This document shows positions 19,086-44,198 of a stretch of 64,000 bases of DNA, piece after piece; position 1 is the stretch's first letter; each line of letters opens with the position of its first letter. The notes beneath the pieces were generated by a model that searched no databases, was not told where the DNA came from, and saw nothing but the letters and a program-made list of their open reading frames with translations. Origin of the DNA: a virus; IMG/VR virus record IMGVR_UViG_3300011440_000001, one strand, 5' to 3'. The position numbers and the translations under genes were made by a program.

Positions 19086-19110
19086 CGCAGAGTGGAAGAG
19101 TACATTCCGC

Positions 19111-19139
19111 TAGACACGGGTGTCAAGCGAAATTATACT
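19111..19139 (+). promoter_or_regulatory. sigma70-like promoter with embedded palindromic operator (copy 1)
   Basis: TAGACA-N17-TATACT. The -35 element is half of the palindrome TAGACA-CGGG-TGTCAA. Confidence 0.45.
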
Positions 19140-19179
19140 CCGCGGCGCGTGAGTTCACCCGCATGAGGAGGATGCTCTG

Positions 19180-19779
19180 ATGAAGTCTCTCAAGACTGAA
19201 CGGCTGTTAGCTTTCGGGTTGCTCGGGCTGCTGATAACACCGGCACTCGCGGTAGCCGATGGGCCGGGGAAGGTCGAGCTGCTCTACGGGCTGACCTCTC
19301 CTGCCGGCGACACTGGTGACGAGGAGCAGATCTACGGCGCCGGATGGGTGTACCACACCAGCGGGCCATGGCACGTCGAGGTGCGCGGGCTGCTGGGCGA
19401 GAGCGAGCAGATCGACACCGAAGATGCGGAAGTGGAGGTACCGGAGGCTCTGAAGCACTGGGGTACCACCTACGTGCCGCCGACCATCACCAAGAGAGTC
19501 GAGCGCACCGAAGACGGCCGGCTGGTCTCGCTGAGCTTCGGGCTGCGCAGGGTGCTGGGTTACGGCAAGTCGGTCAAGCCGTACCTGGCCGCAGGTGCAG
19601 GACCGAACATCACCGAGTTCGGCTCGGACTACGTGACCTACAACGCCGGGGCCGGGTTGCTGTTCGACCTGAGCGACACGGTGGACCTGGTCGTAGACGG
19701 GCGCTACGTCGGCCCCATCGACAAGCAGGACGACGTTCACGCCATCGCCGCGACCATCGGAGTGAGCATCGGCAAGTAA
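19180..19779 (+). CDS. outer-membrane beta-barrel protein (OmpX/Ail/Lom-like moron)
   Basis: Signal peptide (LLAFGLLGLLITPALAVA), alternating hydrophobic beta-strand pattern, aromatic-rich. SD GAGGAGG. Confidence 0.55.
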   Translation: MKSLKTERLLAFGLLGLLITPALAVADGPGKVELLYGLTSPAGDTGDEEQIYGAGWVYHTSGPWHVEVRGLLGESEQIDTEDAEVEVPEALKHWGTTYVPPTITKRVERTEDGRLVSLSFGLRRVLGYGKSVKPYLAAGAGPNITEFGSDYVTYNAGAGLLFDLSDTVDLVVDGRYVGPIDKQDDVHAIAATIGVSIGK

Positions 19780-19871
19780 GTTTCCCAAGTAGGCCCTGGC
19801 GTGCGGCGGGGGGCAGCGTCCCTGGTCAAACGCCCGCTCGCCGGGGCCTCCCCCACAGCGACGGTGCCCCA

Positions 19872-20198
19872 GTGCGACCCGACTCAGACTTCATCGACGC
19901 GAATCCCGGCAAGGCCATCGCCGCGGAGACCTTGCGCCACAACGTGGATAGATGGAAGGAAAACCGCGATCGGCCCCCAGGCAGGAAACCGGCGCTCAAC
20001 TCACACTCAGGCGCCGAGTCCCATATCGACACCAACGCCTGCACGGGCCATTCGTGGAACTGCGACTGCAGGCACTGCCTGGTGGACTGGTTCCTGCATC
20101 ACCCGGTCGGCCACGAGGGGTACCTGTCGTTCGCGCTGTGCTGCGATACCCTCGGGCTCAACCAGCAGGCCGTGCTCGAGAGACTCGGGCTGAGATGA
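19872..20198 (+). CDS. Cys/His-rich small protein (108 aa), not a separate call in the ORF track
   Basis: Protein-like frame (…HNVDRWKENRD…CTGHSWNCDCRHCLVDWFLHHPVGHEGY…) inside the long 19344..20198 ORF. First in-frame start after the OMP stop is GTG 19872. Ends 7 nt before tRNA-Pro. Confidence 0.3.
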   Translation: MRPDSDFIDANPGKAIAAETLRHNVDRWKENRDRPPGRKPALNSHSGAESHIDTNACTGHSWNCDCRHCLVDWFLHHPVGHEGYLSFALCCDTLGLNQQAVLERLGLR

Positions 20199-20204
20199 TT
20201 CCAT

Positions 20205-20280
20205 CGGGGTGTAGCGTAGTGGCCAACGCACTCGCTTTGGGAGCGAGGGACCGGAGGTTCGACTCCTCCCACCCCGACCA
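20205..20280 (+). tRNA. tRNA-Pro (anticodon TGG), CCA encoded
   Basis: Hand-folded cloverleaf. 7-bp acceptor CGGGGTG/CACCCCG. D-arm GCGT/ACGC. Anticodon stem CTCGC/GCGAG with loop TTTGGGA. T-arm GGAGG-TTCGACT-CCTCC. Discriminator A plus CCA. Confidence 0.85.
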
Positions 20281-20298
20281 TCACCACGGAATCACGGT

Positions 20299-20748
20299 GT
20301 GACAATGATCCTCGCCGTCTCCGGCTCGCGCCACTCCGGCCACGCCATCACCATCGCCAGGTTCATCGCGCGCTTCGGCCTGGCCCCCTCACGCATCGTC
20401 ACCGGCGAGCAGAAAGGTGTCGATGCCGCAGCCCGCGCATGGGCCACCGACCACGACATCCCCCTCACGGTTATCGAAGCCGAATGGACACGCTACGGGA
20501 AAGCCGCCGGCCCCATCCGCAGCCTCGCCGTCATCAAACGCGCCCATGCGCTCCTCGCGCTTCCCTGCAAACACTCCAAAGGGACGCTCAGGGCGATAGA
20601 CATTGCGAAGGAACTCGGCGTCGAATTGTTTTCCGAATACATCCGCTGCAATAGGAAGAACGATATTGTCACCGACCAATGGACCTGGCACCGTCCAGGC
20701 TGCCAATGCCTCTACTGCGTCGATACGAGGCGCGACCCACCTAGCTGA
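20299..20748 (+). CDS. DprA/Smf-like Rossmann (SLOG/DUF2493-type) protein
   Basis: Motifs ILAVSGSR and IVTGEQKGVDAAARAWA are typical of phage DUF2493/DprA-like proteins. Confidence 0.45.
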   Translation: MTMILAVSGSRHSGHAITIARFIARFGLAPSRIVTGEQKGVDAAARAWATDHDIPLTVIEAEWTRYGKAAGPIRSLAVIKRAHALLALPCKHSKGTLRAIDIAKELGVELFSEYIRCNRKNDIVTDQWTWHRPGCQCLYCVDTRRDPPS

Positions 20749-21180
20749 GGGGAATACCCGCCTTCTCCCTCCAGTTCGGCCCGAACCAGCGAACGAAGTA
20801 GTCCTCGTCTTCGTCGGTCATCGAGCCTTCGATGTCGAGCTTCCGGGCCATGAAAAGCTGGAACGACTCCTCCCGCTCATCCCCAGACTCGAGCCGCTTC
20901 CTGATGCGCCCTGCCTCGCGACGGTCGATCTTCCCGAGGCGCTCCTCCGGGCTGTCGTCGATCAGAACCCGCCCAACCTTCGCGAGCCGAAGTAAGTCCG
21001 CAGGCTTCGGGGGCCTCTCCCCCTCCTCCACGTGCCGCGCCAACGCCGCAAGACCCTCCGTGTCCGAAATCCGCACCATCACCTCGTACCATGCCTGCCC
21101 CGTCGCCGGATGAACCCTGAGGTTGTACAGCGCCGCTATCCGGTCCACAAGGTTCTTGATGCCTGCCTGAGTCAATGCGT
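20741..21180 (-). CDS. hypothetical protein (about 146 aa, TTG start)
   Basis: AGGAGG 7 nt upstream of TTG at 21180. Acidic C-terminus. Confidence 0.35.
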
Positions 21181-21945
21181 CCCCTCCTCTGCGTCGAAGA
21201 CGTAGGCGTCCACTTCCTTCGGCTTCGGGTTCGTCCACCACTCCCGCCGCAAATAGCGCGGCGTCCGCGGCAAGTACTGCAGCCCCTCCCCGCGGTACTT
21301 CTGCCAGCCAAGCTGCTCGTTCAACGCCCCCACAATGACCTCCGCGTCGATCTCGAGCTGGTGATCTCTCCAGAGTTTCTCGCATTCCCGGCCCGACTCC
21401 GGAAACGGATGCGCCCTCCAGAACGCACAAAACCCAGGAAGGTCTTCTGGCGGTTTCCATCTACTGCGGTTCGATGTCGAACGAGAACCCCGCGCCGGTT
21501 TTGGGCGCGGGTGTATGTTTTTAAGATCTTCTTCACTTACCTCTACTACACTACCCTTACCTAGTGACATTTTGTGACGCGGCGTGACATGGCGTGACAA
21601 AGAATCACGCTGTCGCTTAATCTGCTGTCGCTGTGCTGCTTTACCTCTGTCGCTGTTGAGCCATCCGCCACGGCCACGCTCGTTCCATCCGTGCAAGGAT
21701 CTTGGTTCGTCCATGTACCCAGATTCGATGAGCGCGACGATGAGTGCCTGCGGGTCCCCCTTGAAGCCGGCCGCTTCAGCGATGTCTTCGTCCGACCATA
21801 GCGATAGATCCCCGGTCGGGGCCTGGATCATCGCCGCCTCCCACAGTGCTATCAGGTAGGCGTGAGCTAGGGGCTCGTCAAGTAGTTTTCTAAGTCGGAT
21901 TGTCTTGCGGTGGTGATTGAAGCCGAGTTCAACCGGCACGTACAT
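21172..21945 (-). CDS. hypothetical protein (257 aa), possibly replication-associated
   Basis: ATG 21945 preceded by GAGGAGG. Basic central region. Confidence 0.4.
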   Translation of the reverse strand: MYVPVELGFNHHRKTIRLRKLLDEPLAHAYLIALWEAAMIQAPTGDLSLWSDEDIAEAAGFKGDPQALIVALIESGYMDEPRSLHGWNERGRGGWLNSDRGKAAQRQQIKRQRDSLSRHVTPRHKMSLGKGSVVEVSEEDLKNIHPRPKPARGSRSTSNRSRWKPPEDLPGFCAFWRAHPFPESGRECEKLWRDHQLEIDAEVIVGALNEQLGWQKYRGEGLQYLPRTPRYLRREWWTNPKPKEVDAYVFDAEEGTH

Positions 21946-22486
21946 CTTACGCACCTCCTCAAGATCGCCGGGGGGCTGTGGGGCTTGAGGTCCCCTCAAC
22001 CCCCCGGCAGGTGTGGCTGCGCCTTCCTGCTTCTGCCGCGGGGCGGGAACCCCGCGAGGCTCACCAACATTACCCCAGCCTCACTCAAAATGTCAAAACC
22101 AGAAAAACGCCCTACAAGGCATCATTTCCATGAGTCGCACCCCAAACTACCTGGACCAGAAAACGACGCGGCCTACACCGGTTTCCCGATGAATGCGGGC
22201 CATCCTGGCGCAAACCAGTAACCCAGATCCGGCAGGCACCACCAGAACAGCCAGACACACGGCCCACTGATCCACTCATGTGTCACCTAACGAGGACGGC
22301 ACTTCCGGGCCGCGAAAGTAGGGGTGGGGGCCATACCCTGAACCATGGGACTCCCCGCTGCTCGCGGGTCGGTCGGGACGCACGCGCGCACCACGCGGCG
22401 CACTCCCCCAGCTCCCACTCACCGGCCACGCGCTCTGCTGTTCCGCTTCGCACACCAGCCCCACTGTGTGCCCTTGTTCGCATTCG

Positions 22487-22680
22487 CTGCATAGGCGCAC
22501 CTCGCAACCAACATATGCGCATCTAAGTAGGCCGCATAGGCGCAATGTGGACGGGACGGGTACTGCGGGGTGTGCTGCCTGACGAATCAGTCACCGTCAG
22601 TCACCGTCAGTCACGCCAATCTGCATGGGCACATACTCACAGCCTGCATAGGCACAATCGCACAGGTTGCATATGCATCT
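22487..22680. repeat. iteron cluster: six or more copies of GCATAGGCRCA / GCATATGCR
   Basis: Copies read directly at 22487, 22513, 22533, 22621, 22644 and 22668. Partly palindromic (CATATG cores). Confidence 0.5.
22589..22616. repeat. tandem repeat CAGTCACCGT x2.8
   Basis: Direct reading of the sequence. Confidence 0.7.
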
Positions 22681-22911
22681 GTCGCAGAGTGTCGCGGCGT
22701 CACTCGGCTCGCGGCGCGGGTGTCGGGAACGACGTCGGCATCGGCACGCCTTCGAGGCGTTCCAAGGCCCATTCGAGCAGCGCGCGGGCGTGCGCCACGT
22801 CCAGGCGCGTCGGGCTGTCGTGAGCCAGCGAGTCGAGCGCGCCCCGCAGGCTGTCCTCAATCCATGCGTCCGTGACGGCGTTTTCGTCGGCGCAAACCGC
22901 ACGAAACAGGC

Positions 22912-22938
22912 GATTTAGGGGATTTATGGGATTTAGGG
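22912..22938. repeat. tandem repeat GATTTAGGG / GATTTATGGG x3
   Basis: Direct reading. Lies inside the doubtful minus-strand ORF 22700..23239. Confidence 0.6.
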
Positions 22939-23235
22939 CAGATGGGCTAAAGGGCGGGCGACGCATACCCATTCTCTCCGTTTCCCATATACGTATCAGT
23001 CTGCGACGCCCATGTGGAATGGCGGTGCTAACGTTCGTTAGCACCCCGGCGCCTTGCTTGGCGCGGGCCGTATCACGACTCATAACCCCCTCCATCTCTG
23101 TCCACTGGGTAGCGCCGCAGGAGCATGTATCCACGCGCAGGATGTTCCCGTGCGCCGCCGCCGACTCACAGTCGTCAGGCGCGACACAGTACGGCCAGGG
23201 GAGATCCACGCTCTTATCGCTGCGGTGCTGATGGC

Positions 23236-23481
23236 TCACGCCCGCACCGTAATGCGTCCGCCGCGGGAATCGTCCTGCCAGATTTCGCGGCCATCGGACA
23301 GCACGGCCACGGGGCCGTATCCGTTCGGGTCGGCTTCACGGGATGCCTGCTCGTCCACTGTCACGCCGATGGCCTGAAGAGCCAGGTCCAGCGCGTCGGC
23401 CCAGTTGTCGCCGCGTCGATTCGCGTCGTCGATGGCCTGGCGGACGGTCTCGCAGATTTCCTCGTCGGTCGCGTTTGTCAT
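23236..23481 (-). CDS. small acidic hypothetical protein (81 aa, start trimmed)
   Basis: Protein-like composition. Divergent from the 23502 promoter. No clear SD. Confidence 0.3.
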   Translation of the reverse strand: MTNATDEEICETVRQAIDDANRRGDNWADALDLALQAIGVTVDEQASREADPNGYGPVAVLSDGREIWQDDSRGGRITVRA

Positions 23482-23501
23482 GCGGGGAATGGTACGCCTA
23501 C

Positions 23502-23530
23502 TTGACAAAGCTGTCAAGTAGGGGTATATA
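23502..23530 (+). promoter_or_regulatory. consensus sigma70 promoter with embedded palindromic operator (copy 2)
   Basis: TTGACA-N17-TATATA. The -35 element is half of the 16-bp palindrome TTGACA-AAGC-TGTCAA (23502..23517). Confidence 0.55.
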
Positions 23531-23554
23531 GAGACCAACACATTGAGGGACCAC

Positions 23555-23752
23555 ATGAAGCTACCTCAAGGGCTAGACCCTGACACGATTGTAGAGGCTG
23601 CGGAGTCGGATGACGGTCGTGGTTTTTGTTTAGCGTGTGGTGAGGAGCATTACGACATTGAGCCGGACGCGCGGGAGTATTTGTGCGAGTCCTGTGGTGC
23701 GGATGAAGTCTACGGGGCGGAGGAGTTGTTGTTGATGGGGGCAGCGTCGTGA
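23555..23752 (+). CDS. small zinc-ribbon protein (65 aa)
   Basis: CxxC ... CxxC. SD GAGGGA. First gene after the 23502 promoter. Confidence 0.45.
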   Translation: MKLPQGLDPDTIVEAAESDDGRGFCLACGEEHYDIEPDAREYLCESCGADEVYGAEELLLMGAAS

Positions 23753-24189
23753 GCGCGGGCGCCGCGGTGTGTGAGCGGTGTTTGAGGGGGTACGCGCCGG
23801 TGCGGAAGGTATCGAGTCCGCTGGAAGCTGCGACCTTGTTCAAGACGTTGGCATCGCGCAGGACGGAGGCGTTGCGGGTTGCGTATCTGGATTCGCAGAA
23901 TCAGGTGCTCGCGGTGCGGACGGTATCGGTAGGCTCGCTCAACACGACGCGCACGGCGCCGCGGGAGATTCTACGGCCGGCGATAGAGGCGAACGCCCTT
24001 GGGTTCATTCTTGCGCACAATCACCCATCTGGGAGTGTGCGGCCATCGCAGGACGACATTGACTTCACGCGAGTGGTGAAGCGAGCAGGGGAGATGATGG
24101 GGATCTCGCTCTACGACCACGTGATCATCGCGAAGCAGAAGGGGCGGCCGTTGTCATGGGTGAGCCTGAAGGAAGAGGGGCACCTGTGA
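23749..24189 (+). CDS. radC: RadC-like JAB/MPN domain protein
   Basis: JAMM-like motif …AHNHPSG… with conserved upstream Glu and downstream Ser/Asp. Confidence 0.6.
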   Translation: MSAGAAVCERCLRGYAPVRKVSSPLEAATLFKTLASRRTEALRVAYLDSQNQVLAVRTVSVGSLNTTRTAPREILRPAIEANALGFILAHNHPSGSVRPSQDDIDFTRVVKRAGEMMGISLYDHVIIAKQKGRPLSWVSLKEEGHL

Positions 24190-24395
24190 GGCCTGGGCAT
24201 CTTACACCGATTATCAGGCACGTCGCGGTGTGTTGTGGGCAAGACGTTGTGTGTGAGTTGCAGGTCAACGTCTGTCCGACGTGCGGTGTTACCTACGACT
24301 GGGCGGCACGACGGATTCGCGGGCGTGTGGTTGATGCGGATGCGGTGTTGGCTCCGGTCTATGAATTCCCGAGCGGGAATCGGAGGGCACAGTGA
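24186..24395 (+). CDS. small Cys-rich protein (69 aa, GTG start overlapping upstream stop)
   Basis: GTGA overlap. CC ... C ... CxxC. Confidence 0.3.
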   Translation: MRPGHLTPIIRHVAVCCGQDVVCELQVNVCPTCGVTYDWAARRIRGRVVDADAVLAPVYEFPSGNRRAQ

Positions 24396-24832
24396 TCAGC
24401 GCGCGGCGGGGGCCGTACACGTTCGATGAGGCTGTGGCGATGGTGCGCGGGGCGGGGTTCACACACGTTCTCACGATGGCTGGGCCGACGCCCGTTGCCG
24501 AATGGTCTCCTTACGGTCAGGCGCGCGGCGAGCGGTATCGGGTTCGCGTGGACATTGTGAAGGGGCGTGTGTACGACGAGCCCCCGGAGCACTGTCCGCC
24601 GGGGTTCGGTCTAGGCGTGTGGACGCTGTTGTGGCTCGACGAGGCCGCCGGCGCGCTCGATCCGGACAACGCGATGGCCTACGTCTCGATGCTGCGTCGC
24701 GCGCACGAGCTGGGGGCGTTCCGTCAGGTGATCTTCGTTTCGCACAGTCAGGAAGTCTGGGAGGCGGCCGACGCGCGCCTCTTCGTCGCCGACGGGCGGG
24801 TCACTACAACTCTTCAGAGGGAGGCCGCATGA
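24392..24832 (+). CDS. hypothetical protein with ABC/SMC-ATPase C-terminal-like motifs (Walker B, D-loop, H-loop) but no Walker A
   Basis: TLLWLDEAAGALD followed by VIFVSHS. No P-loop or signature motif. Confidence 0.35.
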   Translation: MISARRGPYTFDEAVAMVRGAGFTHVLTMAGPTPVAEWSPYGQARGERYRVRVDIVKGRVYDEPPEHCPPGFGLGVWTLLWLDEAAGALDPDNAMAYVSMLRRAHELGAFRQVIFVSHSQEVWEAADARLFVADGRVTTTLQREAA

Positions 24833-25599
24833 AGATCGAGATCAAATCTTGGTGGACCGGCAACGTGCTGATCGAGGTAGAGGCCGACTCGATCCGCGCG
24901 GCGCTGGAGATCGCCGTCGGAAAGAAAACCGACCTCAGGGGCGCCGACCTCAGGGGCGCCGACCTCAGGGGCGCCCACCTCAGGGGCGCCGACCTCAGGG
25001 ACGCCGACCTCAGGGACGCCGACCTCAGGGACGCCGACCTCAGGGACGCCGACCTCAGGGGCGCCGACCTCAGGGACGCCGACCTCAGGGACGCCGACCT
25101 CAGGGGCGCCGACCTCAGGGACGCCGACCTCAGGGGCGCCGACCTCGGGGGCGCCGACCTCGGGGGCGCCGACCTCGGGGGCGCCGACCTCAGGGACGCC
25201 GACCTCAGGGACGCCGACCTCAGGGACGCCGACCTCAGGGGCGCCCACCTCAGGGACGCCGACCTCAGGGGCGCCCACCTCAGGGACGCCGACCTCAGGG
25301 GCGCCCGTCTGGAGACCGGAGAGACGATGGCTCAGTACATCGAGAGCGTCGTGCCGGCGCTGTGCACGGCTGGAGGGCGCACGATCGAGGAAGTCGCCAC
25401 CGCGTGGAACTGCCACGACTGGGGCAACTGCCCGATGCACGTGGCGTTCAACGGCGCGGAGAGTCCCGACGATCCGCGCGTGCCGATGTTGCTGCGCCCG
25501 CGCGTGCATCAGTTCGTGCGGCTGTTCGACGCGCGGCTACTGCCGAATCCGCTGGGGGAGAAGGCGTCGCCCGCGTGCCCGGTCACGCCAGGCCAATGA
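24829..25599 (+). CDS. pentapeptide-repeat protein (about 27 tandem A(D/N)LRx pentapeptides)
   Basis: N-terminal ~30-aa globular cap, then (ADLRG/ADLRD)n, then a ~95-aa C-terminal domain. SD GAGGGAGG. Confidence 0.65.
   Translation: MKIEIKSWWTGNVLIEVEADSIRAALEIAVGKKTDLRGADLRGADLRGAHLRGADLRDADLRDADLRDADLRDADLRGADLRDADLRDADLRGADLRDADLRGADLGGADLGGADLGGADLRDADLRDADLRDADLRGAHLRDADLRGAHLRDADLRGARLETGETMAQYIESVVPALCTAGGRTIEEVATAWNCHDWGNCPMHVAFNGAESPDDPRVPMLLRPRVHQFVRLFDARLLPNPLGEKASPACPVTPGQ
24931..25305. repeat. near-perfect 15-bp DNA tandem repeat (gacctcagggRcgcc) x~25 within the pentapeptide gene
   Basis: Direct reading. Units differ by 1-2 nt. Confidence 0.85.
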
Positions 25600-27542: not shown

Positions 27543-27559
27543 CTGAGCATTTGGGGTTT

Positions 27560-27646
27560 CCCGGCGTGGTGGAATGGCAAACACAGCGGCCCTTAGGTGC
27601 CGCTGGGCTGTAATGGCCCATGCGGGTTCGACTCCCGCCGCCGGGA
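27560..27646 (+). tRNA. type-II tRNA-Leu(UAG)-like gene with 8-nt anticodon loop (CCUUAGGU); no encoded CCA
   Basis: Perfect 7-bp acceptor CCCGGCG/CGCCGGG. 3-bp D-stem. 5-bp anticodon stem GCGGC/GCCGC with an 8-nt loop. Long variable arm GGGC…GCCC. T-arm GCGGG-TTCGACT-CCCGC. Confidence 0.45.
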
Positions 27647-27684
27647 TCAAACGCATCAATTCGGCAAAGGGGGGGGGCGGGTAG

Positions 27685-36561: not shown

Positions 36562-36668
36562 CGGAAGGTGGCGTGGTGACTGTCGCGGTGCCGCGTTTCG
36601 CAGAGGGCGCGGGGCTCGGACCTGCCCACGAGCATGCACACGCCCGACAGTCACCACCAGGAACATGA

Positions 36669-36744
36669 TGCGGGGAGGTGCCCTGGTGGGCATGGATGGC
36701 TCATAACCATCACGTGGTCGGTTCGATTCCGACCCCCGCTACCA
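36669..36744 (+). tRNA. tRNA with anticodon CAU (Met or Ile2-type), CCA encoded; unusual U1·U72 mismatch
   Basis: Hand-folded. D-arm GTGC/GCAT. Anticodon stem GATGG/CCATC, loop CTCATAA. T-arm GTCGG-TTCGATT-CCGAC. Acceptor positions 2-7 paired. Confidence 0.65.
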
Positions 36745-37098: not shown

Positions 37099-37126
37099 CG
37101 CGCCCACGTGGCGCAGGAGGGTGTGA

Positions 37127-37975: not shown

Positions 37976-38145
37976 GCCGCCGTGGGCACCGCCAGCAACT
38001 CAAGGGCGGCCGGGAGTACGACTGGGTCGGCCGGTGGCGCCGCTTCTACCACTGGGGCTCAGGTGTGGGCAAGTACGTCAAGAGCCGGATGAGCAGGCGG
38101 AGCCGCCGGCTGGCGAAGGCCGAAGCGAGAAGGCAGGATACTTGA

Positions 38146-38516
38146 TGGCCGCGAAGCCGCGTAAGGACCTGAAGTTCCACGGATGGGACTGGACTGAACT
38201 GCTCGCCATCTGGCCCGAGTCCAGGCGCGTGGAGTGGCCGAAAGACACGAAGGCGAATCACTACAAGGAGGAGGCGCAGGCCAACTGGATCCTTCACCGT
38301 CTCGATGAGATGTACGCCCTCGAATACCCGACATTGGGGGGAGAGGCTACGCCCGAGACGAAGTGGCGCTACCGGCAGGTCAGACGGTTCGCCAAGAAGT
38401 GCGCGGCGAGCAGCCATCACACCGGCCGAGGCATCATGAAGGCCATCGCCAACGAGAAAGACCTGACCGCATTCCTGGGGTGGTTCTCGATGTCGCTGCG
38501 CGCCTGGTGGACATGA
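38146..38516 (+). CDS. hypothetical protein (123 aa)
   Basis: Trp-rich. First of a long run of coupled small genes. Confidence 0.35.
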
Positions 38517-38737
38517 TGGCCGCCACCCATGCCTACATCGGGCGCAAGCCGTGCGGGTGCGTCGTGGCAGCCTGCGTGGATGACGAGAGCGACAGGGCCG
38601 AGAGCGCGCGCTTCACGGCGCGCCTGATCCGCCAGGGCATGACAGTGGAGCGGCGCGAGACCACATGGGTCCGTGACAACCTCAAGGGATGTCGCTGCGC
38701 GCCGTCGCAGCGGAGCCTGCCGAAAGACGAGCGATGA
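38513..38737 (+). CDS. small Cys-containing protein (74 aa)
   Basis: ATGA overlap. Confidence 0.3.
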   Translation: MMAATHAYIGRKPCGCVVAACVDDESDRAESARFTARLIRQGMTVERRETTWVRDNLKGCRCAPSQRSLPKDER

Positions 38738-38946
38738 GCGAGCCTGCGGTGCCCACGCCACCAGCGCGAGGATCATGCTGGCTGTTTCATGCCTGGAGCA
38801 GATGGAGCAAGCCGGAGTCCAAGAAAATCAGCAAGTTCATCATGGGGCGCGTCGTTGCGCCACCGGAGGGCCAGGAGTTCGTCGTGTGGCGCCAGCAGCG
38901 GGAGTGCTACAAGTGCAGCAAGGTCGAGGTGCGCGAGGTCACGTGA
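38734..38946 (+). CDS. small protein (70 aa)
   Basis: ATGA overlap. C-terminal CxxC. Confidence 0.3.
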   Translation: MSEPAVPTPPARGSCWLFHAWSRWSKPESKKISKFIMGRVVAPPEGQEFVVWRQQRECYKCSKVEVREVT

Positions 38947-39033
38947 ATAGGAGCGCAGGGGCCAAGAACCCCAGGTTCGACCCATACGGACGCTCACGGC
39001 GATTCGTCACAGGACATAACACCGGAGATCCTC

Positions 39034-40119
39034 GTGGCCGATTCCGCGATTGAATGGACAGACAAAGTCTGGAACGTCGTGCGCGGCTGTTCTCGCGTGT
39101 CGGCTGGCTGCGGTGGGCCTGGCAACGCCGGTGGCTGCTACGCAGAGCGGCAAGCCTACCGCTTCTCTGGCCCAGGTCAACCGTATGAAGGGCTGGTGCG
39201 TATGACTCCGTCAGGTCCACGCTGGACCGGCAAGGTCGCCCTTATCCCGGAGAAGCTCGAGGAACCGTTGCGCTGGAGAAAGCCGCAGAAGATCTTCGTG
39301 AACTCGATGAGCGACCTGTTCCACGAGGGGGTGTCGGACGTCGAGATCGACCGCGTGTTCGTCACGATGTGGTACGCGCGCCAGCACACCTTCCAGGTGC
39401 TCACGAAGCGCCCGCGGCGGATGCTCGCGTGGTCGCGCGGGATGCTCAACAGCGACCGATGGGACGCGGCGCGCCTCCCCCTGTATCAGGCGTTCCGTGA
39501 GCAGTCGCGCGCGGCCAAGGGCGCGCACAGAATCGGACTGGCCCTGAACCGCGCGGAACGGGTTGGCGTCATGGGCGCGTGGCCGGAGTGGCCGCTCCCG
39601 AACGTCTGGCTCGGGGTCAGTGTTGAGGACCAGGCGACGGCCGACGAGCGGATCCCGTTTCTGCTCGAGACCCCGGCGGCGAAGCACTTCGTCTCCTATG
39701 AACCTGCTCTCGGGCCGGTGGACTTCAAGAAGTGGCACGGCATTTGTGAGAACAGCAACTGCCCGCACACCATCTACGACTGTCGCAATGGCCCCGATGT
39801 GTCCCTGCTCGACCTCGTGATCGTCGGGGGCGAGTCCGGCCCAGGGGCGCGCCCGTGCGACGTGGCGTGGATCCGCAGCGCGGTGCGCCAGTGCCGGGAG
39901 GCTCAAGTCGCGTGTTTCGTGAAGCAGCTCGGGGCGCGGCCCATCCTAGACGTGCGCGAGGAAGACGTGTTCTCCGAGTTGTGCGCCGCGAAGCATCGCC
40001 GCTGGCACGATCCAGGAGGGGCCGAGCCCAGACGGCAAGTTCTCGCGCTCAAGGACCGCAAGGGAGGCGACCCATCCGAGTGGCCCGAGGATCTCCGTGT
40101 CCGCGAGTTCCCATCATGA
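39034..40119 (+). CDS. phage Gp37/Gp68 family protein (DUF5131-like)
   Basis: N-terminal IEWTD…W.VV.GC…GC…CYAE signature. 361 aa. GTG start. Confidence 0.5.
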   Translation: MADSAIEWTDKVWNVVRGCSRVSAGCGGPGNAGGCYAERQAYRFSGPGQPYEGLVRMTPSGPRWTGKVALIPEKLEEPLRWRKPQKIFVNSMSDLFHEGVSDVEIDRVFVTMWYARQHTFQVLTKRPRRMLAWSRGMLNSDRWDAARLPLYQAFREQSRAAKGAHRIGLALNRAERVGVMGAWPEWPLPNVWLGVSVEDQATADERIPFLLETPAAKHFVSYEPALGPVDFKKWHGICENSNCPHTIYDCRNGPDVSLLDLVIVGGESGPGARPCDVAWIRSAVRQCREAQVACFVKQLGARPILDVREEDVFSELCAAKHRRWHDPGGAEPRRQVLALKDRKGGDPSEWPEDLRVREFPS

Positions 40120-40277
40120 AGTGTGAGGTCTGTGAGGCCCCGATTCACTTCAACGAAGGCAGGATGCAGGGGTCCACAATGGACTCGAAGGTCCATACCG
40201 ACCCGCACATCTGCAAATGGAACCTGCTGATCGCCGCGCTCCATCATATCAAGGACGCGCTCTACATGGTGAGATGA
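40116..40277 (+). CDS. small zinc-finger-like protein (53 aa)
   Basis: ATGA overlap. CEVCE…HICKW. Confidence 0.3.
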   Translation: MKCEVCEAPIHFNEGRMQGSTMDSKVHTDPHICKWNLLIAALHHIKDALYMVR

Positions 40278-40825
40278 TGCCAGAGACGAAGACGGCGCTG
40301 GATCGACTTCTCGAGGCGGCGTGGGAGGCCGTGGGCGAAGTGGGCTGCAATGGCTCGCTGGAAGTGCTGGAGGATGCCCTGCACGCGTTCGAGGCTGCGG
40401 CGCCGGATGCGTTCTTGTGCCCTGGCAGTGATGAGGACCCGTTGACGGCCTACCCGAACACGCCGAATCAGGAGTACGGGGAGATGTGCGCGACGGACAT
40501 CCCCCTCTTCGCCCTCCCCCGGCGGGAGCAGCGGGAGGACGTGGCAGGCACGGCACTATGTCAGCACACAAGGACTCGCCGCTTCATGCAGCCAGCCTCG
40601 ACGAATTATGTATCGTGTGAGGATTGCGGCGCTACATGTCCCGATGCCCTCGACCGCTTCGGAGACCCCGGCGGCAGGGGGCTGTGGGCGATGCGGAAGA
40701 GGGACGAGCCCTCCAGCGCCGAGCCGGTGCGGCATTGTGAGGGGTGTATAGGCACATGGCCGGTGTCCGACGAGGACGGAGCCCCAGAGGTGTCCTGCCC
40801 CGGCATCGGCAAGGAGGCGCGATGA
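40274..40825 (+). CDS. Cys-rich hypothetical protein (183 aa)
   Basis: ATGATG start. Multiple C…C pairs. Confidence 0.35.
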   Translation: MMPETKTALDRLLEAAWEAVGEVGCNGSLEVLEDALHAFEAAAPDAFLCPGSDEDPLTAYPNTPNQEYGEMCATDIPLFALPRREQREDVAGTALCQHTRTRRFMQPASTNYVSCEDCGATCPDALDRFGDPGGRGLWAMRKRDEPSSAEPVRHCEGCIGTWPVSDEDGAPEVSCPGIGKEAR

Positions 40826-41022
40826 CCAAGCCCACGCCCCGTCGGCGCGCGGTGTGTAGAGCCGTGACGTGGATTCACCCTCAGAGCGGTTTCAGTCGTA
40901 AGCGTAGGTGCGCTCGTCGCAGTGGCCACATTGGAGATCATCTCGACTTCGAGTACGCCAATGACGGAACCAAGGTCCCTCAGTGTTGGCCGCGCACCAG
41001 CGCAATGAGGCCGAGGCGATGA
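40822..41022 (+). CDS. small basic protein (66 aa)
   Basis: ATGA overlap. Confidence 0.25.
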   Translation: MTKPTPRRRAVCRAVTWIHPQSGFSRKRRCARRSGHIGDHLDFEYANDGTKVPQCWPRTSAMRPRR

Positions 41023-41393
41023 ACGCGACCGCGCGTTGCACCGACTGCCGTTCGGAGTTCACCGAGGCGCAGATTACCGGGGTGAACGCCTGTCCCGTGT
41101 GCGGCACTGATGGCGTGCCGATGAATATCGCTGACGACGTGACCATCGCTATCAACTGGCACGAGCTGCGCATTCTCGGGATATGGGCGAGCAACTGGGC
41201 GGAGAAGTTCTGTGAGGCTAAGTCTCGCAGGACCCTTGGGAGCATTCTCCGCTCCATCGCCGCACAGCATCCCGGACGCGGTGCCCTCACGATGGTCGGT
41301 GAGCTACAGGAGGTCGCGGACCACTTCGGGACCGATATCACCGCGGCCGAGGGGGACACAACAAGGACAATTAAAGGAGTGAAACCTTCATGA
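41019..41393 (+). CDS. zinc-ribbon protein (124 aa)
   Basis: CTDC…CPVC. ATGA overlap. Confidence 0.35.
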   Translation: MNATARCTDCRSEFTEAQITGVNACPVCGTDGVPMNIADDVTIAINWHELRILGIWASNWAEKFCEAKSRRTLGSILRSIAAQHPGRGALTMVGELQEVADHFGTDITAAEGDTTRTIKGVKPS

Positions 41394-41572
41394 CCCCCGA
41401 GATGCGAGCGGCAGTCGAGTCGTGTCGCCACGAATGGCGCAGCGGGCACAGCCCCATCTGCGAAAACCTAATGGACCATCAGGGGACGTGCTGCTGTGGC
41501 AAATGGGAACATGAGAGCCGTTGCCTCGCCGCCGTGCGCCGCGAGATGGCGAAGGAGGGGGTAGATGGGTAA
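41390..41572 (+). CDS. small Cys-rich protein (60 aa)
   Basis: Cys/His cluster …CCCGKWEHESRC…. Confidence 0.35.
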   Translation: MTPEMRAAVESCRHEWRSGHSPICENLMDHQGTCCCGKWEHESRCLAAVRREMAKEGVDG

Positions 41573-41816
41573 GCGCCTGAACGACGTGACACTTGAGGAG
41601 ATCCGCGAGGACGCGCGCCGCGAGCGCGAGCACGAAGATTCCGAGGCGCGGCGGGAGGGGCCATGCGAACGATGCGACATGCCGCGCTCGCAGCACTTCC
41701 ATCCTGAGGAGTGGCCCCAGGAGACCCGATGGCATTGTGCTCAGTGCGGGAAGCCGATGCAATTTGCCGATGGAATCTGCTTCGCGTGCAACGGCGGTGA
41801 GGACCCCGGACGATGA
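41565..41816 (+). CDS. small Cys-rich acidic protein (83 aa)
   Basis: CERCD…CAQCG…CFAC. Confidence 0.35.
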   Translation: MGKRLNDVTLEEIREDARREREHEDSEARREGPCERCDMPRSQHFHPEEWPQETRWHCAQCGKPMQFADGICFACNGGEDPGR

Positions 41817-41865
41817 TCCTCCTCGCCGCCGCCGCCCTCACCGTCTCGCAGCCTCGGGGGGCACG

Positions 41866-42396
41866 ATGATTCTATCTCGGACGTGGGCAATGCCGAGTGC
41901 GGCCACGTTCTCGATCCCGCCGATACGGTTCCTGATCGAGCGATGGCTACCGGCAGGCGACACCCTGGACCCATTTGCCCGCGGCTCTCTGATGACAACG
42001 GTACGCAACGACATTGACCCGGCCCACGGAACAGAGTTCACGCTGGACGCGAGAGAGTTTCTGGCGGCGATGGCTGGGCGTAGTTTTGCCGGCGCACTGA
42101 TGGACCCGCCCTACTCTCCGCGCCACATCTCCGAGTGCTACAAGGCCATCGGGAGAAATGTATCCGGCATCGACACACAGAACGCGGCCCTTTACTCGTC
42201 CGTGCGCGATCTTCTCGCTCCGCTCATTGAGTTCGATGGCATCGTCATCTCCTTCGGGTGGAATAGTGTTGGGATGGGGATTAAGCGCGGGTTCGCTCAG
42301 GAGGAGATCTTGCTGGTCTGCCACGGGGCGGCACACAACGACACCATTTGCGTCGTGGAGCGCAAAGTGGAGGAGCAACATTGCCTACCGTCATGA
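41866..42396 (+). CDS. small DNA (N6-adenine / N4-cytosine) methyltransferase
   Basis: Motif I-like TLDPFARGS and catalytic motif IV ALMDPPYSP (DPPY). Confidence 0.5.
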   Translation: MILSRTWAMPSAATFSIPPIRFLIERWLPAGDTLDPFARGSLMTTVRNDIDPAHGTEFTLDAREFLAAMAGRSFAGALMDPPYSPRHISECYKAIGRNVSGIDTQNAALYSSVRDLLAPLIEFDGIVISFGWNSVGMGIKRGFAQEEILLVCHGAAHNDTICVVERKVEEQHCLPS

Positions 42397-42713
42397 CCGC
42401 TCTCGCGCTGACCGTCTCGCAGCTCTGCGGCCACTGGTATAGCTCGCCCCCGCAGACCGACGCCCCGTGCGGCGTCGATGGCGTGGCCATCTACCTGCAG
42501 TCCGCGCCGCGGCCTGCGTGCGCCCCCGGGAAGATTGTCGAGGGCGCGTCCATCGAGTCGATGGTCGTGGCGCTGCGCGAGCTGGCTGCGCGTGCCAAGG
42601 AGAGGGGGGCGGACACCGTGCATCTGAGTCAGTACGACCGGCGCTCACGAGGTGACGCGGGACCGACGTGGACGGCGCGGGGGCGGTGGTTCCGGTGCGG
42701 GGGCGCGAGATGA
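42393..42713 (+). CDS. hypothetical protein (106 aa)
   Basis: ATGA overlap with the MTase stop. Confidence 0.35.
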   Translation: MTALALTVSQLCGHWYSSPPQTDAPCGVDGVAIYLQSAPRPACAPGKIVEGASIESMVVALRELAARAKERGADTVHLSQYDRRSRGDAGPTWTARGRWFRCGGAR

Positions 42714-42988
42714 ACAAGGCCGCACACGTTCGCAGCGCATCGCAGTCGCGCAAACATCACTGTCACTGGCCCGGATGCGTCGTTCAGGTCCCTCCAGCCA
42801 TGTGGGGATGCAGATACCACTGGTTCCGTATTCCACGGCACCTCCGCAACAACATCTGGCACGCCTACAGGCCGGGACAGGAGGACGACATGCAGGTGTC
42901 GAGTGTGTACGAGGCCGCAGCGAAGGCGGTGCAGGACTGGATCGCATTGCAGGCCGCCGCTGATGGCGGGGGGAAGGGGAGCGAGTGA
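42710..42988 (+). CDS. small Cys/His-rich protein (92 aa)
   Basis: ATGA overlap. HCHWPGC…CRYHW. Confidence 0.35.
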   Translation: MNKAAHVRSASQSRKHHCHWPGCVVQVPPAMWGCRYHWFRIPRHLRNNIWHAYRPGQEDDMQVSSVYEAAAKAVQDWIALQAAADGGGKGSE

Positions 42989-43143
42989 AGGGTGACATCT
43001 GGTATTGCGTCTGTGGGAGACCATTCGCCCCTGACGATGGTCCGCTACCGAGAGAATGCGATTGTCCGTGCCATGAGGCAAACGTGGACCGCTCCGACTG
43101 CCCAGAGGAGTCTCGTCCACTTTCACTTGAGTAACCGCGCGGC
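42985..43143 (+). CDS. small Cys-rich protein (51 aa)
   Basis: GTGA overlap. CVCG…CDCPCH. Confidence 0.25.
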
Positions 43144-43166
43144 TCCGGCCGCAACAGGAGGAAGGG

Positions 43167-43448
43167 ATGGCTGCGAAGTTTCGCAAGAGGCCCGTCGTGA
43201 TCGAAGCGATGCAATTTGACGGGCACAACTACCCGGAGGTCGTCTCGTGGATTGAGAGTCACGCGGGACACCCTGAGATGGCGTACTCGCCAGCGGGCAC
43301 GCTGTCGATGATGATCCCGACGCTTGAGGGAGACCATCGGGCTAATCCTGGCGACTGGATCATCCGCGGCGTGAGGGGCGAGTTCTACCCATGTAAAGAC
43401 GAGATTTTCAGGATGACTTACGAGCCAGCAGGTCCCGATGAGACTTGA
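43167..43448 (+). CDS. hypothetical protein (93 aa)
   Basis: SD AGGAGGAAGGG. Confidence 0.4.
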   Translation: MAAKFRKRPVVIEAMQFDGHNYPEVVSWIESHAGHPEMAYSPAGTLSMMIPTLEGDHRANPGDWIIRGVRGEFYPCKDEIFRMTYEPAGPDET

Positions 43449-43638
43449 CCGAGTGACAGGTCGCCCGACGCCCTCGCAGCAGCATCAAAGGACGTGCCCG
43501 AAGTGCCGCGCGCGGGAGTGGTGCGTCACGGCCATGGACCTCATCGCGCAGGCGAAGGGATACCTGTCGTGGGACTTTATGGTGGCGGAGATTCGGGCCG
43601 AGCAGATGAGGATGGCCAAGCCAACGAAGGGGGCGTGA
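43438..43638 (+). CDS. small protein with CPKC motif (66 aa)
   Basis: ORF. Confidence 0.3.
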   Translation: MRLDRVTGRPTPSQQHQRTCPKCRAREWCVTAMDLIAQAKGYLSWDFMVAEIRAEQMRMAKPTKGA

Positions 43639-43964
43639 TGGATGACCTGGTGAACCGATGTGACGAGCCTGGGTACATCGGCCTGGATTCAGAGGCGGGT
43701 AAGCGCTTCGGGTTCACGTCGGACAAATACGGCGGCTGGCTGTGGGAGCGCGACGGCGCGATCTACGTGTCATTCATCGCCACGAGGGACGAGGGGCGCG
43801 GGGATCTGTCGGCCCTCTTCAATGCCATCCTGGCGGCTGGCCTGACCGTGAAGGTCCCGACCCCACTCGGGAAGATGCGGAACATCCTGGAGCGCAAGGA
43901 GTTCACACTCACCCATGAGCCCACGGAGCTTGGTGACTGCGAGGTCTGGGTGAAGCGCCCATGA
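43638..43964 (+). CDS. hypothetical protein (108 aa)
   Basis: TGATG overlap. Confidence 0.35.
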   Translation: MDDLVNRCDEPGYIGLDSEAGKRFGFTSDKYGGWLWERDGAIYVSFIATRDEGRGDLSALFNAILAAGLTVKVPTPLGKMRNILERKEFTLTHEPTELGDCEVWVKRP

Positions 43965-44155
43965 GGGACGTCGTCCCTGCCGACATGTACGCCCTGCTCT
44001 ACTGGATGGTCAGGAGCGCGCCGGGCCAGCGCATCGAGGTCCCCTGCCGCGAGATCGCCGGCGCACGGTTCCACATCAAGCTGCAGATGATCGAGCGGGA
44101 CGGCGCACCGCTCCTGGTCGCCTCCCTGGAGCAAGAGAATAATTTACCCTCTTGA
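43961..44155 (+). CDS. small hypothetical protein (64 aa)
   Basis: ATGA overlap. Confidence 0.3.
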   Translation: MRDVVPADMYALLYWMVRSAPGQRIEVPCREIAGARFHIKLQMIERDGAPLLVASLEQENNLPS

Positions 44156-44169
44156 GGGGGCCGTCATCC

Positions 44170-44198
44170 TTGACCTGAGTGTCAAGTCGGCGTATTCT
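44170..44198 (+). promoter_or_regulatory. sigma70-like promoter with embedded palindromic operator (copy 4)
   Basis: TTGACC-N17-TATTCT with TTGACC-TGAG-TGTCAA. Confidence 0.45.

What the first reader, a model, noticed from the sequence alone, without database searches (positions are those of the whole stretch)
19111..44198. Four copies of one promoter with embedded palindromic operator: (T)TGACA-N4-TGTCAA overlapping the -35, 17-bp spacer, TAnAnT -10
The same architecture was read at 19111 (TAGACA cggg TGTCAA … TATACT, upstream of the OMP moron), 23502 (TTGACA aagc TGTCAA … TATATA, start of the early operon), 29397 (TTGACA acgg TGTCAA … TACATT, upstream of the Y-RNA-like element and rsr) and 44170 (TTGACC tgag TGTCAA … TATTCT, upstream of the HTH gene and rusA). 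The -35 hexamer is half of a 16-bp inverted repeat. A dimeric repressor or activator bound there would occlude RNA polymerase. This looks like a phage regulon controlled by a single DNA-binding protein. Candidates are the HTH proteins at 44207..44449 or 16600..17400.
Basis: seen in the sequence. Interest (0 to 1): 0.6.

Follow-up and report, generated by a model that had tools for sequence, protein, structure and literature searches.

The report
Phage promoters sharing one palindromic operator
A rare, previously undescribed 66-kb phage carries five host-type promoters that each contain the same 18-bp palindrome where RNA polymerase binds, which most likely lets one small phage repressor switch off a set of non-structural genes together; this is a textbook design in a new phage.

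Summary
CTTGACA-N4-TGTCAAG occurs five times, not four; the extra site is at 28708. All five sit on the + strand, with the left half as the -35 hexamer and a -10-like hexamer exactly 6 bp after the right half (17-bp spacer). Simulations expect about 0.01 such sites.

The spacer half, TGTCAAG, is identical in 5 of 5 sites. The -35 half is perfect in only 2 of 5, and the N4 and N6 stretches are unrelated between sites. Other promoter-like sites in the same genome, and those in the only relatives found, lack the palindrome. It is therefore an add-on to a subset of promoters.

Two sites (19111, 23502) also fit leftward promoters. The other three do not, so back-to-back -35 boxes cannot explain the set.

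Best reading: a dyad operator centred near -27.5, bound by a dimeric HTH repressor that occludes RNA polymerase. The leading candidate is the orphan 80-aa Xre protein at 44207-44449, which sits behind its own, weakest site. A 97-aa zinc-ribbon/HTH protein (27718-28011) is the runner-up.

No binding data, mapped transcription start sites, or relatives carrying the motif exist. This is a new member of a known kind, of modest interest.

The parts
19110..19127 (.). Dyad O1: CTAGACA-cggg-TGTCAAG (left half has 1 mismatch)
19111..19139 (+). Rightward promoter TAGACA-17-TATACT. It leads through a leader with a GAGGAGG ribosome-binding site to the OMP beta-barrel gene (19180-19779), a 108-aa gene, tRNA-Pro and a YAcAr gene.
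19097..19126 (-). Possible leftward promoter TTGACA-18-TACTCT, 11 nt before ATG 19085. It would serve the 121-aa, VWA, 59, 64, 76 and 266-aa genes.
   Evidence: inferred, weaker than the others
23501..23518 (.). Dyad O2: perfect 18-bp palindrome CTTGACA-aagc-TGTCAAG
23502..23530 (+). Rightward promoter TTGACA-17-TATATA. It leads to the acidic 65-aa zinc-ribbon gene (ATG 23555), RadC, the pentapeptide-repeat gene and onward.
23489..23517 (-). Leftward promoter TTGACA-17-TACCAT, with 7 nt to ATG 23481. This gives a leaderless mRNA for the acidic 81-aa protein.
28708..28725 (.). Dyad O3 (new, fifth site): ATCGACA-ctgc-TGTCAAG. It lies inside the last codons of gene 28393-28755.
28709..28737 (+). 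Weak promoter-like TCGACA-17-CAATCT, 20 nt before GTG 28758 (117-aa membrane-like protein). It may act as an operator only.
   Evidence: inferred
29396..29413 (.). Dyad O4: perfect palindrome CTTGACA-acgg-TGTCAAG
29397..29425 (+). Promoter TTGACA-17-TACATT. It leads to about 400 nt of structured non-coding RNA, including a YrlA-like element, then rsr/TROVE (29832-31190).
29561..29683 (+). YrlA-like RNA, a downstream target of P29397. The Rfam match is sub-threshold but covers the full model.
   Evidence: 37.8 bits against a gathering score of 69, E 7.7e-7
44169..44186 (.). Dyad O5: CTTGACc-tgag-TGTCAAG (left half has 1 mismatch)
44170..44198 (+). Promoter TTGACC-17-TATTCT, with 8 nt to ATG 44207. 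This gives a leaderless or near-leaderless mRNA.
44207..44449 (+). Xre-type HTH protein, 80 aa, pI 10.7. It is the leading candidate regulator, autoregulated from O5, and is followed by a RusA-like gene at 44446-44859.
27718..28011 (+). 97-aa zinc-ribbon plus HTH_23/GerE/sigma-70-region-4-like protein, pI 11.3. It is the alternative candidate regulator.
16600..17400 (-). 266-aa protein whose N-terminus has a sub-threshold HTH_3 match.

Best explanation
Five host-RNA-polymerase (sigma-70-type) promoters of a novel ~66-kb phage carry one 18-bp dyad operator, CTTGACA-N4-TGTCAAG. The operator spans -36 to -19, so its left half is the -35 hexamer and its right half fills the upstream spacer.

A dimeric phage HTH protein binds the two 7-bp half-sites. 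Their centres are 11 bp apart, about one helical turn. Binding competes with sigma region 4 and RNA polymerase, so the whole set is repressed together.

The set covers:
- the OMP/tRNA-Pro unit;
- both arms of the 23502 divergent early region;
- a small membrane-protein unit;
- the YrlA-like RNA and rsr unit;
- the regulator's own gene.

The most likely regulator is the orphan 80-aa Xre protein at 44207-44449. It is made from a leaderless mRNA behind the site with the poorest left half, which would give negative autoregulation and graded shut-off. The perfect dyads at 23502 and 29397 would be repressed first.

The structural and packaging genes use promoter-like sites without the dyad and would escape repression.

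**Shown:** the sites, their geometry, their statistics, their restriction to this lineage, and the HTH domains.
**Inferred:** promoter activity, protein binding, the sign of regulation, and the identity of the regulator.
For: **Enrichment and geometry.**
- Motif enrichment: 5 observed against 0.94 expected; 7 against 0.013 expected for the stricter pattern.
- It is the only recurrent long dyad in the window.
- The -35/17/-10 geometry is fixed at all sites, and every site is co-oriented with a downstream gene or RNA.

**Evidence that the spacer half is selected.**
- TGTCAAG is 5/5 identical, the -35 half is perfect in 2/5, and N4 and N6 are unrelated.
- The 7-mer occurs 8 times in the window, 7 of them inside the five sites, against 5.1 expected overall.

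**Promoter-like sites that lack the dyad.**
- In the window: 15321(-), 15313(+), 9825(-) and 22096(-).
- In the four relatives, plain TTGACA-17-TAnnnT sites lack it, and the relatives have no hit at up to 2 mismatches.

**Leftward promoters.** A leftward -10 exists only at 19111 and 23502. It is absent at 28709, 29397 and 44170 (read from the sequence).

**Candidate regulators.**
- Xre80 has HTH_31/HTH_3, is basic, resembles the 434 repressor and a phage immunity repressor only weakly, and has no homologue anywhere. The dyad is likewise lineage-specific.
- The genes flanking 23502 encode acidic non-HTH proteins, so the regulator is encoded elsewhere.
Against: - There are no binding data and no mapped transcription start sites.
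- No relative carries the motif, so there is no covariation of protein and site.
- Three HTH candidates cannot be separated. A host factor cannot be excluded because the host is unknown.
- The 23502 rightward -10 (TATATA) lacks the conserved final T. The fifth site has a poor -10 and lies in coding sequence, with a chance expectation for one such extra site of roughly 0.05-0.15.
- No integrase or lysogeny module was found, so the biological role of a repressor (temporal shut-off or immunity) is open.
- The predicted structural-gene promoters look fairly strong on their own, which leaves the timing logic incomplete.
Confidence: 0.6

Rival explanations
1. There is no separate regulator. The palindrome is simply two back-to-back -35 hexamers of bidirectional host-type promoters separated by 4 bp. 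The unidirectional sites are relics or copies of such a cassette.
For: - 23502 fits promoters in both directions: TTGACA-17-TATATA rightward and TTGACA-17-TACCAT leftward, with a leaderless ATG.
- 19111 fits a leftward TTGACA-18-TACTCT.
- Another divergent pair at 15313-15321 also makes a palindrome from overlapping -35s.
- Several unrelated metagenome contigs match the 30-nt pattern on both strands.
Against: - At 28709, 29397 and 44170 there is no leftward -10 at 16-19 bp and no leftward gene. Leftward transcription there would be antisense to the upstream + strand genes.
- Even so, TGTCAAG is 5/5 identical while the surrounding N4 and N6 are randomised. A relic would have decayed in the same way.
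- The flanking C/G that makes the half-site 7 bp is absent from the non-palindromic -35s.
Confidence: 0.12
2. The dyad is bound by a host transcription factor, or by a phage activator, rather than a phage repressor. This would tie the phage units to a host signal.
For: - The half-site equals the host -35 consensus.
- No phage protein has been tied to the site.
- The units include moron-like cargo (OMP, rsr/YrlA) that a host signal could plausibly control.
Against: - The site centre near -27.5, the 17-bp spacer and near-consensus hexamers fit neither class I/II activation (centres near -61.5 or -41.5) nor MerR-type activation (19-20-bp spacers). This rests on established promoter geometry.
- The relatives of this phage lack the dyad.
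- I recalled no host regulator with this consensus. That is from memory, not a test.
Confidence: 0.15
3. The inverted repeat acts as a DNA hairpin or cruciform, for example as an N4-type hairpin promoter for a virion RNA polymerase, or as an origin or recombination site, and not as a duplex operator.
For: - A 7-bp stem with a 4-nt loop could extrude.
- The genome encodes a 3618-aa virion-module protein, about the size of N4 vRNAP.
Against: - The giant protein has methyltransferase-like, helicase and LPD38 segments. It shows no similarity to any solved RNA polymerase, including N4 vRNAP.
- The exact sigma-70 geometry and the fixed -10 at every site are unexplained by a hairpin model.
- The N4 loop sequence is not conserved.
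Confidence: 0.03

Closest known systems
434/lambda/P22-type Cro and CI repressors with dyad operators overlapping promoters
   Same: - A small Xre/Cro-type HTH protein. Xre80 hits HTH_31/HTH_3 and, weakly, the 434 repressor.
- Dyad operators with half-sites about one helical turn apart, inside the promoter core.
- Repression by occlusion.
- Likely autoregulation, and leaderless regulator mRNA as for lambda cI from PRM (my own knowledge).
   Different: - There are single dyads at five dispersed promoters, not tandem OR1-3/OL1-3 arrays.
- No divergent repressor/cro gene pair flanks any site. The 23502 neighbours are acidic non-HTH proteins.
- There is no C-terminal oligomerisation or peptidase domain.
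- No integrase was found.
- The half-site is the -35 consensus itself.
Cluster A mycobacteriophage (L5, Bxb1) repressor sites and stoperators
   Same: - One repressor acts on many sites dispersed across the genome.
- The L5 consensus GGTGGMTGTCAAG ends in the same TGTCAAG, the complement of CTTGACA (PMC3029335).
- The sites are oriented with transcription.
   Different: - L5 sites are 13-bp asymmetric sites bound by a monomer with two domains. There are more than 20 of them, mostly outside promoters, and they block elongation (PMC9283540).
- Here the sites are symmetric, only five in number, and all in promoter position.
- No sequence relationship of the proteins was detected, apart from a weak hit (E 0.028) to an 'immunity repressor' chain, 8bny.
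Controller (C) proteins of restriction-modification systems and their C-boxes
   Same: - An HTH dimer of about 80 aa related to the lambda repressor DNA-binding domain.
- It autoregulates its own promoter.
- A single dimer site can simply repress, as at the Esp1396I M promoter (PMC2691842).
   Different: - The C-box consensus is GACTnnnAGTCnnnGACTnnnAGTC, with two cooperative dimers giving activation and then repression (PMC2691842).
- Here there is one dyad with a different sequence.
- The downstream gene is RusA-like, not a restriction endonuclease.
Streptomyces phage phiC31 repressor and its conserved inverted repeats (from my own knowledge; no paper retrieved)
   Same: One phage repressor acts on many near-identical inverted repeats placed at a family of early promoters scattered along the genome.
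   Different: - phiC31 early promoters are not sigma-70-consensus promoters.
- The repeats are 17 bp, of different sequence, and more numerous.
- phiC31 is a temperate phage with an integrase.

Membership tests
Sigma-70-type (housekeeping) bacterial promoter | -35 hexamer close to TTGACA | tested here: met
   The hexamers are TAGACA, TTGACA, TCGACA, TTGACA and TTGACC, each 5-6 of 6.
Sigma-70-type (housekeeping) bacterial promoter | Spacer of 17 +/- 1 bp and a -10 hexamer with A at position 2 and T at position 6 | tested here: inconclusive
   The spacer is 17 bp at all five sites. The -10 is TAnnnT at three (TATACT, TACATT, TATTCT). TATATA lacks the final T, and CAATCT is poor.
Sigma-70-type (housekeeping) bacterial promoter | Transcription starts 6-8 nt downstream of the -10 | not testable with these tools
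   No transcript data are available. ATG codons 7-8 nt after the -10 at 23481 and 44207 fit leaderless starts.
Cro/CI-type (Xre HTH) repressor-operator system | Small HTH_3/HTH_31 DNA-binding protein encoded by the element | tested here: met
   Xre80 hits HTH_31 at E 2.4e-6 (28.2 bits against a cut-off of 27). It also gives weak hits to the 434 repressor.
Cro/CI-type (Xre HTH) repressor-operator system | Dyad-symmetric operator overlapping the promoter core | tested here: met
   The 7-N4-7 dyad spans -36 to -19 at five sites.
Cro/CI-type (Xre HTH) repressor-operator system | Tandem operators between divergent repressor and cro genes (a bistable switch) | tested here: not met
   Only single dyads are present. 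The 23502 neighbours are acidic proteins (pI 4.1) with no HTH. No integrase was found among the proteins scanned.
Cro/CI-type (Xre HTH) repressor-operator system | The protein binds the operator | not testable with these tools
   This needs EMSA or footprinting. No homologues exist for covariation analysis.
Cluster A mycobacteriophage stoperator system | 13-bp asymmetric sites, more than 20 per genome, bound by a monomeric two-domain repressor | tested here: not met
   The sites here are symmetric and number five. The 7-mer TGTCAAG is almost confined to them. The family definition comes from PMC3029335 and PMC9283540.
R-M controller (C) protein / C-box | C-box GACTnnnAGTC repeats upstream of a C gene that overlaps a restriction endonuclease gene | tested here: not met
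   The dyad sequence differs. The downstream gene is RusA-like (phrog_6537, E 0.0018). The consensus comes from PMC2691842.
N4-like hairpin promoters for a virion RNA polymerase | A giant virion RNA polymerase encoded by the phage | tested here: not met
   The 3618-aa protein gives no PDB hit at E below 0.01. Its PHROG and Pfam hits are methyltransferase, helicase and LPD38.

The most novel reading that the evidence does not exclude
The binder is not the Xre protein. Instead it is the 97-aa zinc-ribbon protein, whose HTH scores against GerE and sigma-70 region 4 models. Because both half-sites are the -35 consensus itself (CTTGACA), this protein would act as a dimeric mimic of sigma region 4 and compete directly for -35 hexamers. 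That would give an apparently non-temperate phage a dedicated shut-off of its own early, anti-host and Ro60/Y-RNA units.
Probability: 0.1. Interest if true: 0.6.

Novelty: new member of a known kind. Interest (0 to 1): 0.3.

Why it matters
The finding gives a compact and testable regulatory map for a phage lineage with almost no relatives. It identifies five co-regulated promoters, a defined 18-bp operator, and three candidate proteins small enough to synthesise.

One regulated unit is a phage-borne YrlA-like RNA plus Ro60 (rsr) module. The operator therefore offers a handle on when a phage deploys such an RNA-quality-control system.

The operator-promoter pair could also serve as a compact repressible part for GC-rich Gram-negative hosts. 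The regulatory principle itself is textbook.

Tried and rejected
**Searches for relatives carrying the motif.**
- INPHARED DNA and protein searches found only Rsr-gene matches and distant capsid hits.
- IMG/VR scans with the replication initiator, the capsid protein and a portal alignment found nothing.
- A scan of GTDB genomes with the portal alignment found no prophage.
- Homologue searches returned only self-hits for Xre80 and essentially none for the replication initiator.
- Portal relatives (47-69% identity) were fetched as L136-L139. They share only the structural module and lack the dyad.

**Pattern scans of public collections.**
- None of those matches shares DNA or protein similarity with the window.
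- They therefore say nothing about enrichment.

**Near-identical variants.** Metagenome contigs 99.6-99.9% identical to the window show no variation at any site.

**N4-like virion RNA polymerase idea.** Rejected.

**cI/cro-type switch at 23502.** Rejected. The flanking proteins are acidic. The 81-aa protein folds confidently (pLDDT 85) but has no significant structural match. The 132-aa model was too poor to use (pLDDT 46).

**Additional weaker sites.** With 3 mismatches only 3682 and 23579 appear, which is about the chance number.

**GANTC methylation link.** GANTC is only mildly under-represented, with 188 sites against about 298 expected. I did not pursue this.

**Literature.** No paper describing this motif was found.

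Full report
**What the window is**

The window is 64,000 bp of a circularly permuted phage genome of about 66.3 kb with 65% G+C. The genome was assembled repeatedly from metagenomes, as ENA k141 contigs of 65.7-66.2 kb and as Logan and JGI contigs. These copies are 99.6-99.9% identical to the window, and the missing 2.3 kb joins window end to window start.

The gene layout is as follows.
- Structural and packaging genes lie on the - strand, from 15286 down to 1 and from 64000 down to 44849. They include the major head protein (7147-8448), the portal (11406-13712) and a 3618-aa methyltransferase/helicase/LPD38 protein.
- A long + strand block runs from 23555 to 44859. It holds RadC, a pentapeptide-repeat protein, Rsr/TROVE, a Gp3-like protein, an exonuclease-like protein, DUF5131 and a RusA-like protein.
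- A - strand block from 23481 to 20741 holds a replication-initiator-like gene.
- A small + strand unit from 19180 to 20748 holds an OMP beta-barrel gene, tRNA-Pro and a YAcAr gene.
- No integrase or partition gene was seen among about 90 proteins scanned.

The lineage is isolated. There are no close relatives in INPHARED, IMG/VR or GTDB genomes. Only eight portal homologues, at 47-69% identity, were found among 5.8 billion proteins.

**Checking the observation**

TTGACANNNNTGTCAA with at most 1 mismatch occurs at the four reported positions and at a fifth, 28709. That is 5 matches against 0.94 expected, and 0 of 100 shuffles reached 5.

Aligned, the unit is CTTGACA-N4-TGTCAAG-N6-[-10 hexamer]. 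The left half is the -35 hexamer and the spacer is exactly 17 bp at all five sites.
- 19110: CTAGACAcgggTGTCAAGcgaaatTATACT
- 23501: CTTGACAaagcTGTCAAGtaggggTATATA
- 28708: ATCGACActgcTGTCAAGcggctcCAATCT
- 29396: CTTGACAacggTGTCAAGccacggTACATT
- 44169: CTTGACCtgagTGTCAAGtcggcgTATTCT

A stricter pattern gives 7 strand-hits against a simulated mean of 0.013. Enumerating every 5-7-bp dyad with gaps of 0-11 bp shows this is the only recurrent long dyad in the window, apart from pentapeptide-repeat DNA and a CG run. The independent consensus promoter scan lists 19111(+), 23517(-), 29397(+) and 44170(+) among its very few best hits.

The sites are also not copies by descent, since nothing outside the motif aligns.

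**Why the palindrome is more than a -35 box**

- The spacer half is the better conserved half. TGTCAAG, which lies in a part of the promoter that sigma-70 does not read, is identical in 5 of 5 sites. The -35 half is perfect in only 2 of 5, and N4 and N6 are unrelated.
- The 7-mer is almost confined to these sites. It occurs 8 times on both strands, 7 of them inside the five sites, against 5.1 expected overall. Only one copy lies elsewhere.
- The genome has other promoter-like sites with the same -35/17/-10 geometry, and often the same leaderless layout, but without the dyad.
  - TTGACT-17-TAGGCT, 6 nt before GTG 15286, at the head of the terminase/portal genes.
  - TTGAGT-17-TACCGT, 8 nt before ATG 15350.
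  - TTGACA-17-TATCGT at 9825(-), in the 390-nt gap before the scaffold and capsid genes.
  - TTGACA-18-TAATGT at 22096(-), before the replication gene.
- Four relatives (loci L136-L139, portal +/- 10 kb) have plain TTGACA-17-TAnnnT sites, several followed 6-7 nt later by ATG. They have no TTGACA-N4-TGTCAA even with 2 mismatches and no recurrent dyad of their own.

The dyad is therefore an add-on carried by a subset of promoters in one lineage.

**Both strands**

At 23502 the palindrome lies between divergent genes, and both directions fit promoters.
- Rightward: TTGACA-17-TATATA, then a short leader with GAGGGA, then ATG 23555.
- Leftward: TTGACA-17-TACCAT, then 7 nt, then ATG 23481, which implies a leaderless mRNA.

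At 19111 a leftward TTGACA-18-TACTCT lies 11 nt before ATG 19085.

At 28709, 29397 and 44170 no leftward -10 exists at 16-19 bp. Leftward transcription there would be antisense to + strand genes. Back-to-back -35 boxes explain two sites at most, and they do not explain the perfect conservation of TGTCAAG at the other three.

**What the promoters drive**

- P19111-R drives the OMP beta-barrel gene, a 108-aa gene, tRNA-Pro and a YAcAr gene.
- P19111-L (possible) drives a 121-aa gene, a VWA protein, three small genes and the 266-aa protein.
- P23502-L drives a leaderless, acidic 81-aa protein and a 132-aa protein.
- P23502-R drives an acidic 65-aa zinc-ribbon protein, RadC, a pentapeptide-repeat protein and further genes.
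- P28709 is weak. It lies in the last codons of 28393-28755 and would drive a 117-aa membrane-like protein.
- P29397 drives about 400 nt of structured RNA (z = -3.2), then rsr. The RNA contains a full-length but sub-threshold YrlA match at 29561-29683 (37.8 bits, E 7.7e-7).
- P44170 drives the leaderless 80-aa Xre protein and then a RusA-like gene.

The dyad class thus covers the early, accessory and regulatory units found here. The packaging and head genes, and the internal promoter-like site upstream of the replication initiator, use dyad-free promoter-like sites.

**Mechanism**

If transcription starts about 7 nt after the -10, the dyad spans -36 to -19 and is centred near -27.5. The half-site centres are 11 bp apart, about one turn of the helix, which is the usual arrangement for an HTH dimer. 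The hexamers are near consensus and the spacer is the optimal 17 bp, so these promoters should not need an activator.

A protein at -27.5 cannot act as a class I or class II activator. The spacer length also excludes the MerR mode. This follows from established promoter geometry and is an inference here. Repression by occlusion is therefore the most likely action.

Candidate regulators:
- **Xre80 (44207-44449).** It hits HTH_31/HTH_3, has pI 10.7, and shows weak similarity to the 434 repressor and to a phage immunity repressor. It has no homologue in 5.8 billion proteins, which parallels the lineage-specific dyad. It has its own dyad promoter, with the poorest left half (TTGACC). That fits autoregulation, with its own promoter being the last to shut.
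- **HTH97 (27718-28011).** It has a zinc ribbon plus HTH_23/GerE/sigma-70-region-4-like hits and pI 11.3.
- **p266 (16600-17400).** It has only a sub-threshold HTH_3 match (E 0.0075).

The genes flanking 23502 encode proteins with pI about 4.1 and no HTH. The 81-aa protein folds with pLDDT 85 but matches nothing in the PDB. That region is therefore not a cI/cro switch.

My rough odds for the binder are Xre80 0.45, HTH97 0.25, and p266, another phage protein or a host factor 0.3.

**Comparison with known systems**

The design works like the 434/lambda class: an Xre HTH dimer on a dyad inside the promoter. It lacks the tandem operators, the divergent repressor/cro pair and a lysogeny module.

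It shares the idea of many dispersed sites for one repressor with Cluster A mycobacteriophages, and even shares the heptamer TGTCAAG (L5 consensus GGTGGMTGTCAAG; PMC3029335). Those sites, however, are asymmetric, number more than 20, are bound by a monomer and block elongation (PMC9283540). The shared heptamer is best explained by both systems overlapping a -35 box.

It resembles R-M controller proteins in size, fold class and autoregulation. The C-box sequence, the two-dimer logic and the gene context differ (PMC2691842).

An N4-type hairpin promoter is excluded, because there is no virion RNA polymerase.

**Verdict**

This is a new member of a well-known kind of regulatory design. The specific operator and its orphan regulator are new, but the principle is not. 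Interest is modest, at 0.3.

Noticed in passing
window 15293-15341: A divergent promoter-like pair without the dyad. Its two -35 hexamers overlap in the 9-bp palindrome TTGAGTCAA (15313-15321), which contains a GANTC site. The pair reads (-) TTGACT-17-TAGGCT, 6 nt before GTG 15286 (terminase/portal genes), and (+) TTGAGT-17-TACCGT, 8 nt before ATG 15350. Relatives L137 (8281-) and L139 (8193-) also have TTGACTC in the equivalent gap.
   Followed up: partly
window 9797-9825 (-): TTGACA-N11-TGTCAA immediately followed by TATCGT, in the 390-nt gap upstream of the scaffold and major head genes. It has the same half-site words as the dyad but at a different spacing. The homologous promoter-like site in L136 lacks the TGTCAA.
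   Followed up: no
window 29432-29830: About 400 nt of structured non-coding sequence lies between P29397 and rsr (z = -3.2). It holds a full-length but sub-threshold YrlA (Y RNA-like) match at 29561-29683 (37.8 bits, E 7.7e-7), with tRNA-like T- and D-arm segments. About 130 nt upstream of that match is unassigned and could be a second Y-like RNA.
   Followed up: partly
window 27559-27648 and 36667-36744: ARAGORN calls an odd tRNA with a 4-base anticodon (ttag) and a tRNA-Met. Rfam at gathering threshold reports only the tRNA-Pro at 20205-20277.
   Followed up: no
window 23236-23481 (-) and 23555-23752 (+): The two genes on either side of the perfect dyad encode very acidic small proteins (pI 4.16 and 4.05). 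The 81-aa protein folds confidently from a single sequence (pLDDT 85; three helices plus a three-stranded sheet) with no significant PDB match. They may be early anti-host or DNA-mimic proteins.
   Followed up: partly
window 24829-25599: The pentapeptide-repeat gene differs in length by about 300 bp of repeat units between otherwise 99.6-99.9% identical metagenome variants (L130 against the window).
   Followed up: partly
window 47709-58565 (-): A 3618-aa protein in the virion module has DNA-methyltransferase-like, helicase (Helicase_C_4) and LPD38 segments, so it resembles a polyvalent protein. It is not related to N4 virion RNA polymerase.
   Followed up: partly
window 21945-22700: A gene-free stretch of about 750 nt lies upstream of the replication-initiator-like gene. 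It contains a promoter-like site (22096-) and terminator-like hairpins (22106-22123, 22164-22180) and may be an origin or a non-coding RNA region.
   Followed up: no
whole window; loci L136, L139: Many predicted promoters are followed by a start codon 6-8 nt after the -10 (23481, 44207, 15350; L136 177 and 5604; L139 1729). This suggests that leaderless mRNAs are common in this phage family.
   Followed up: partly
whole window: GANTC sites are moderately under-represented: 188 observed against about 298 expected from first-order Markov simulations.
   Followed up: no
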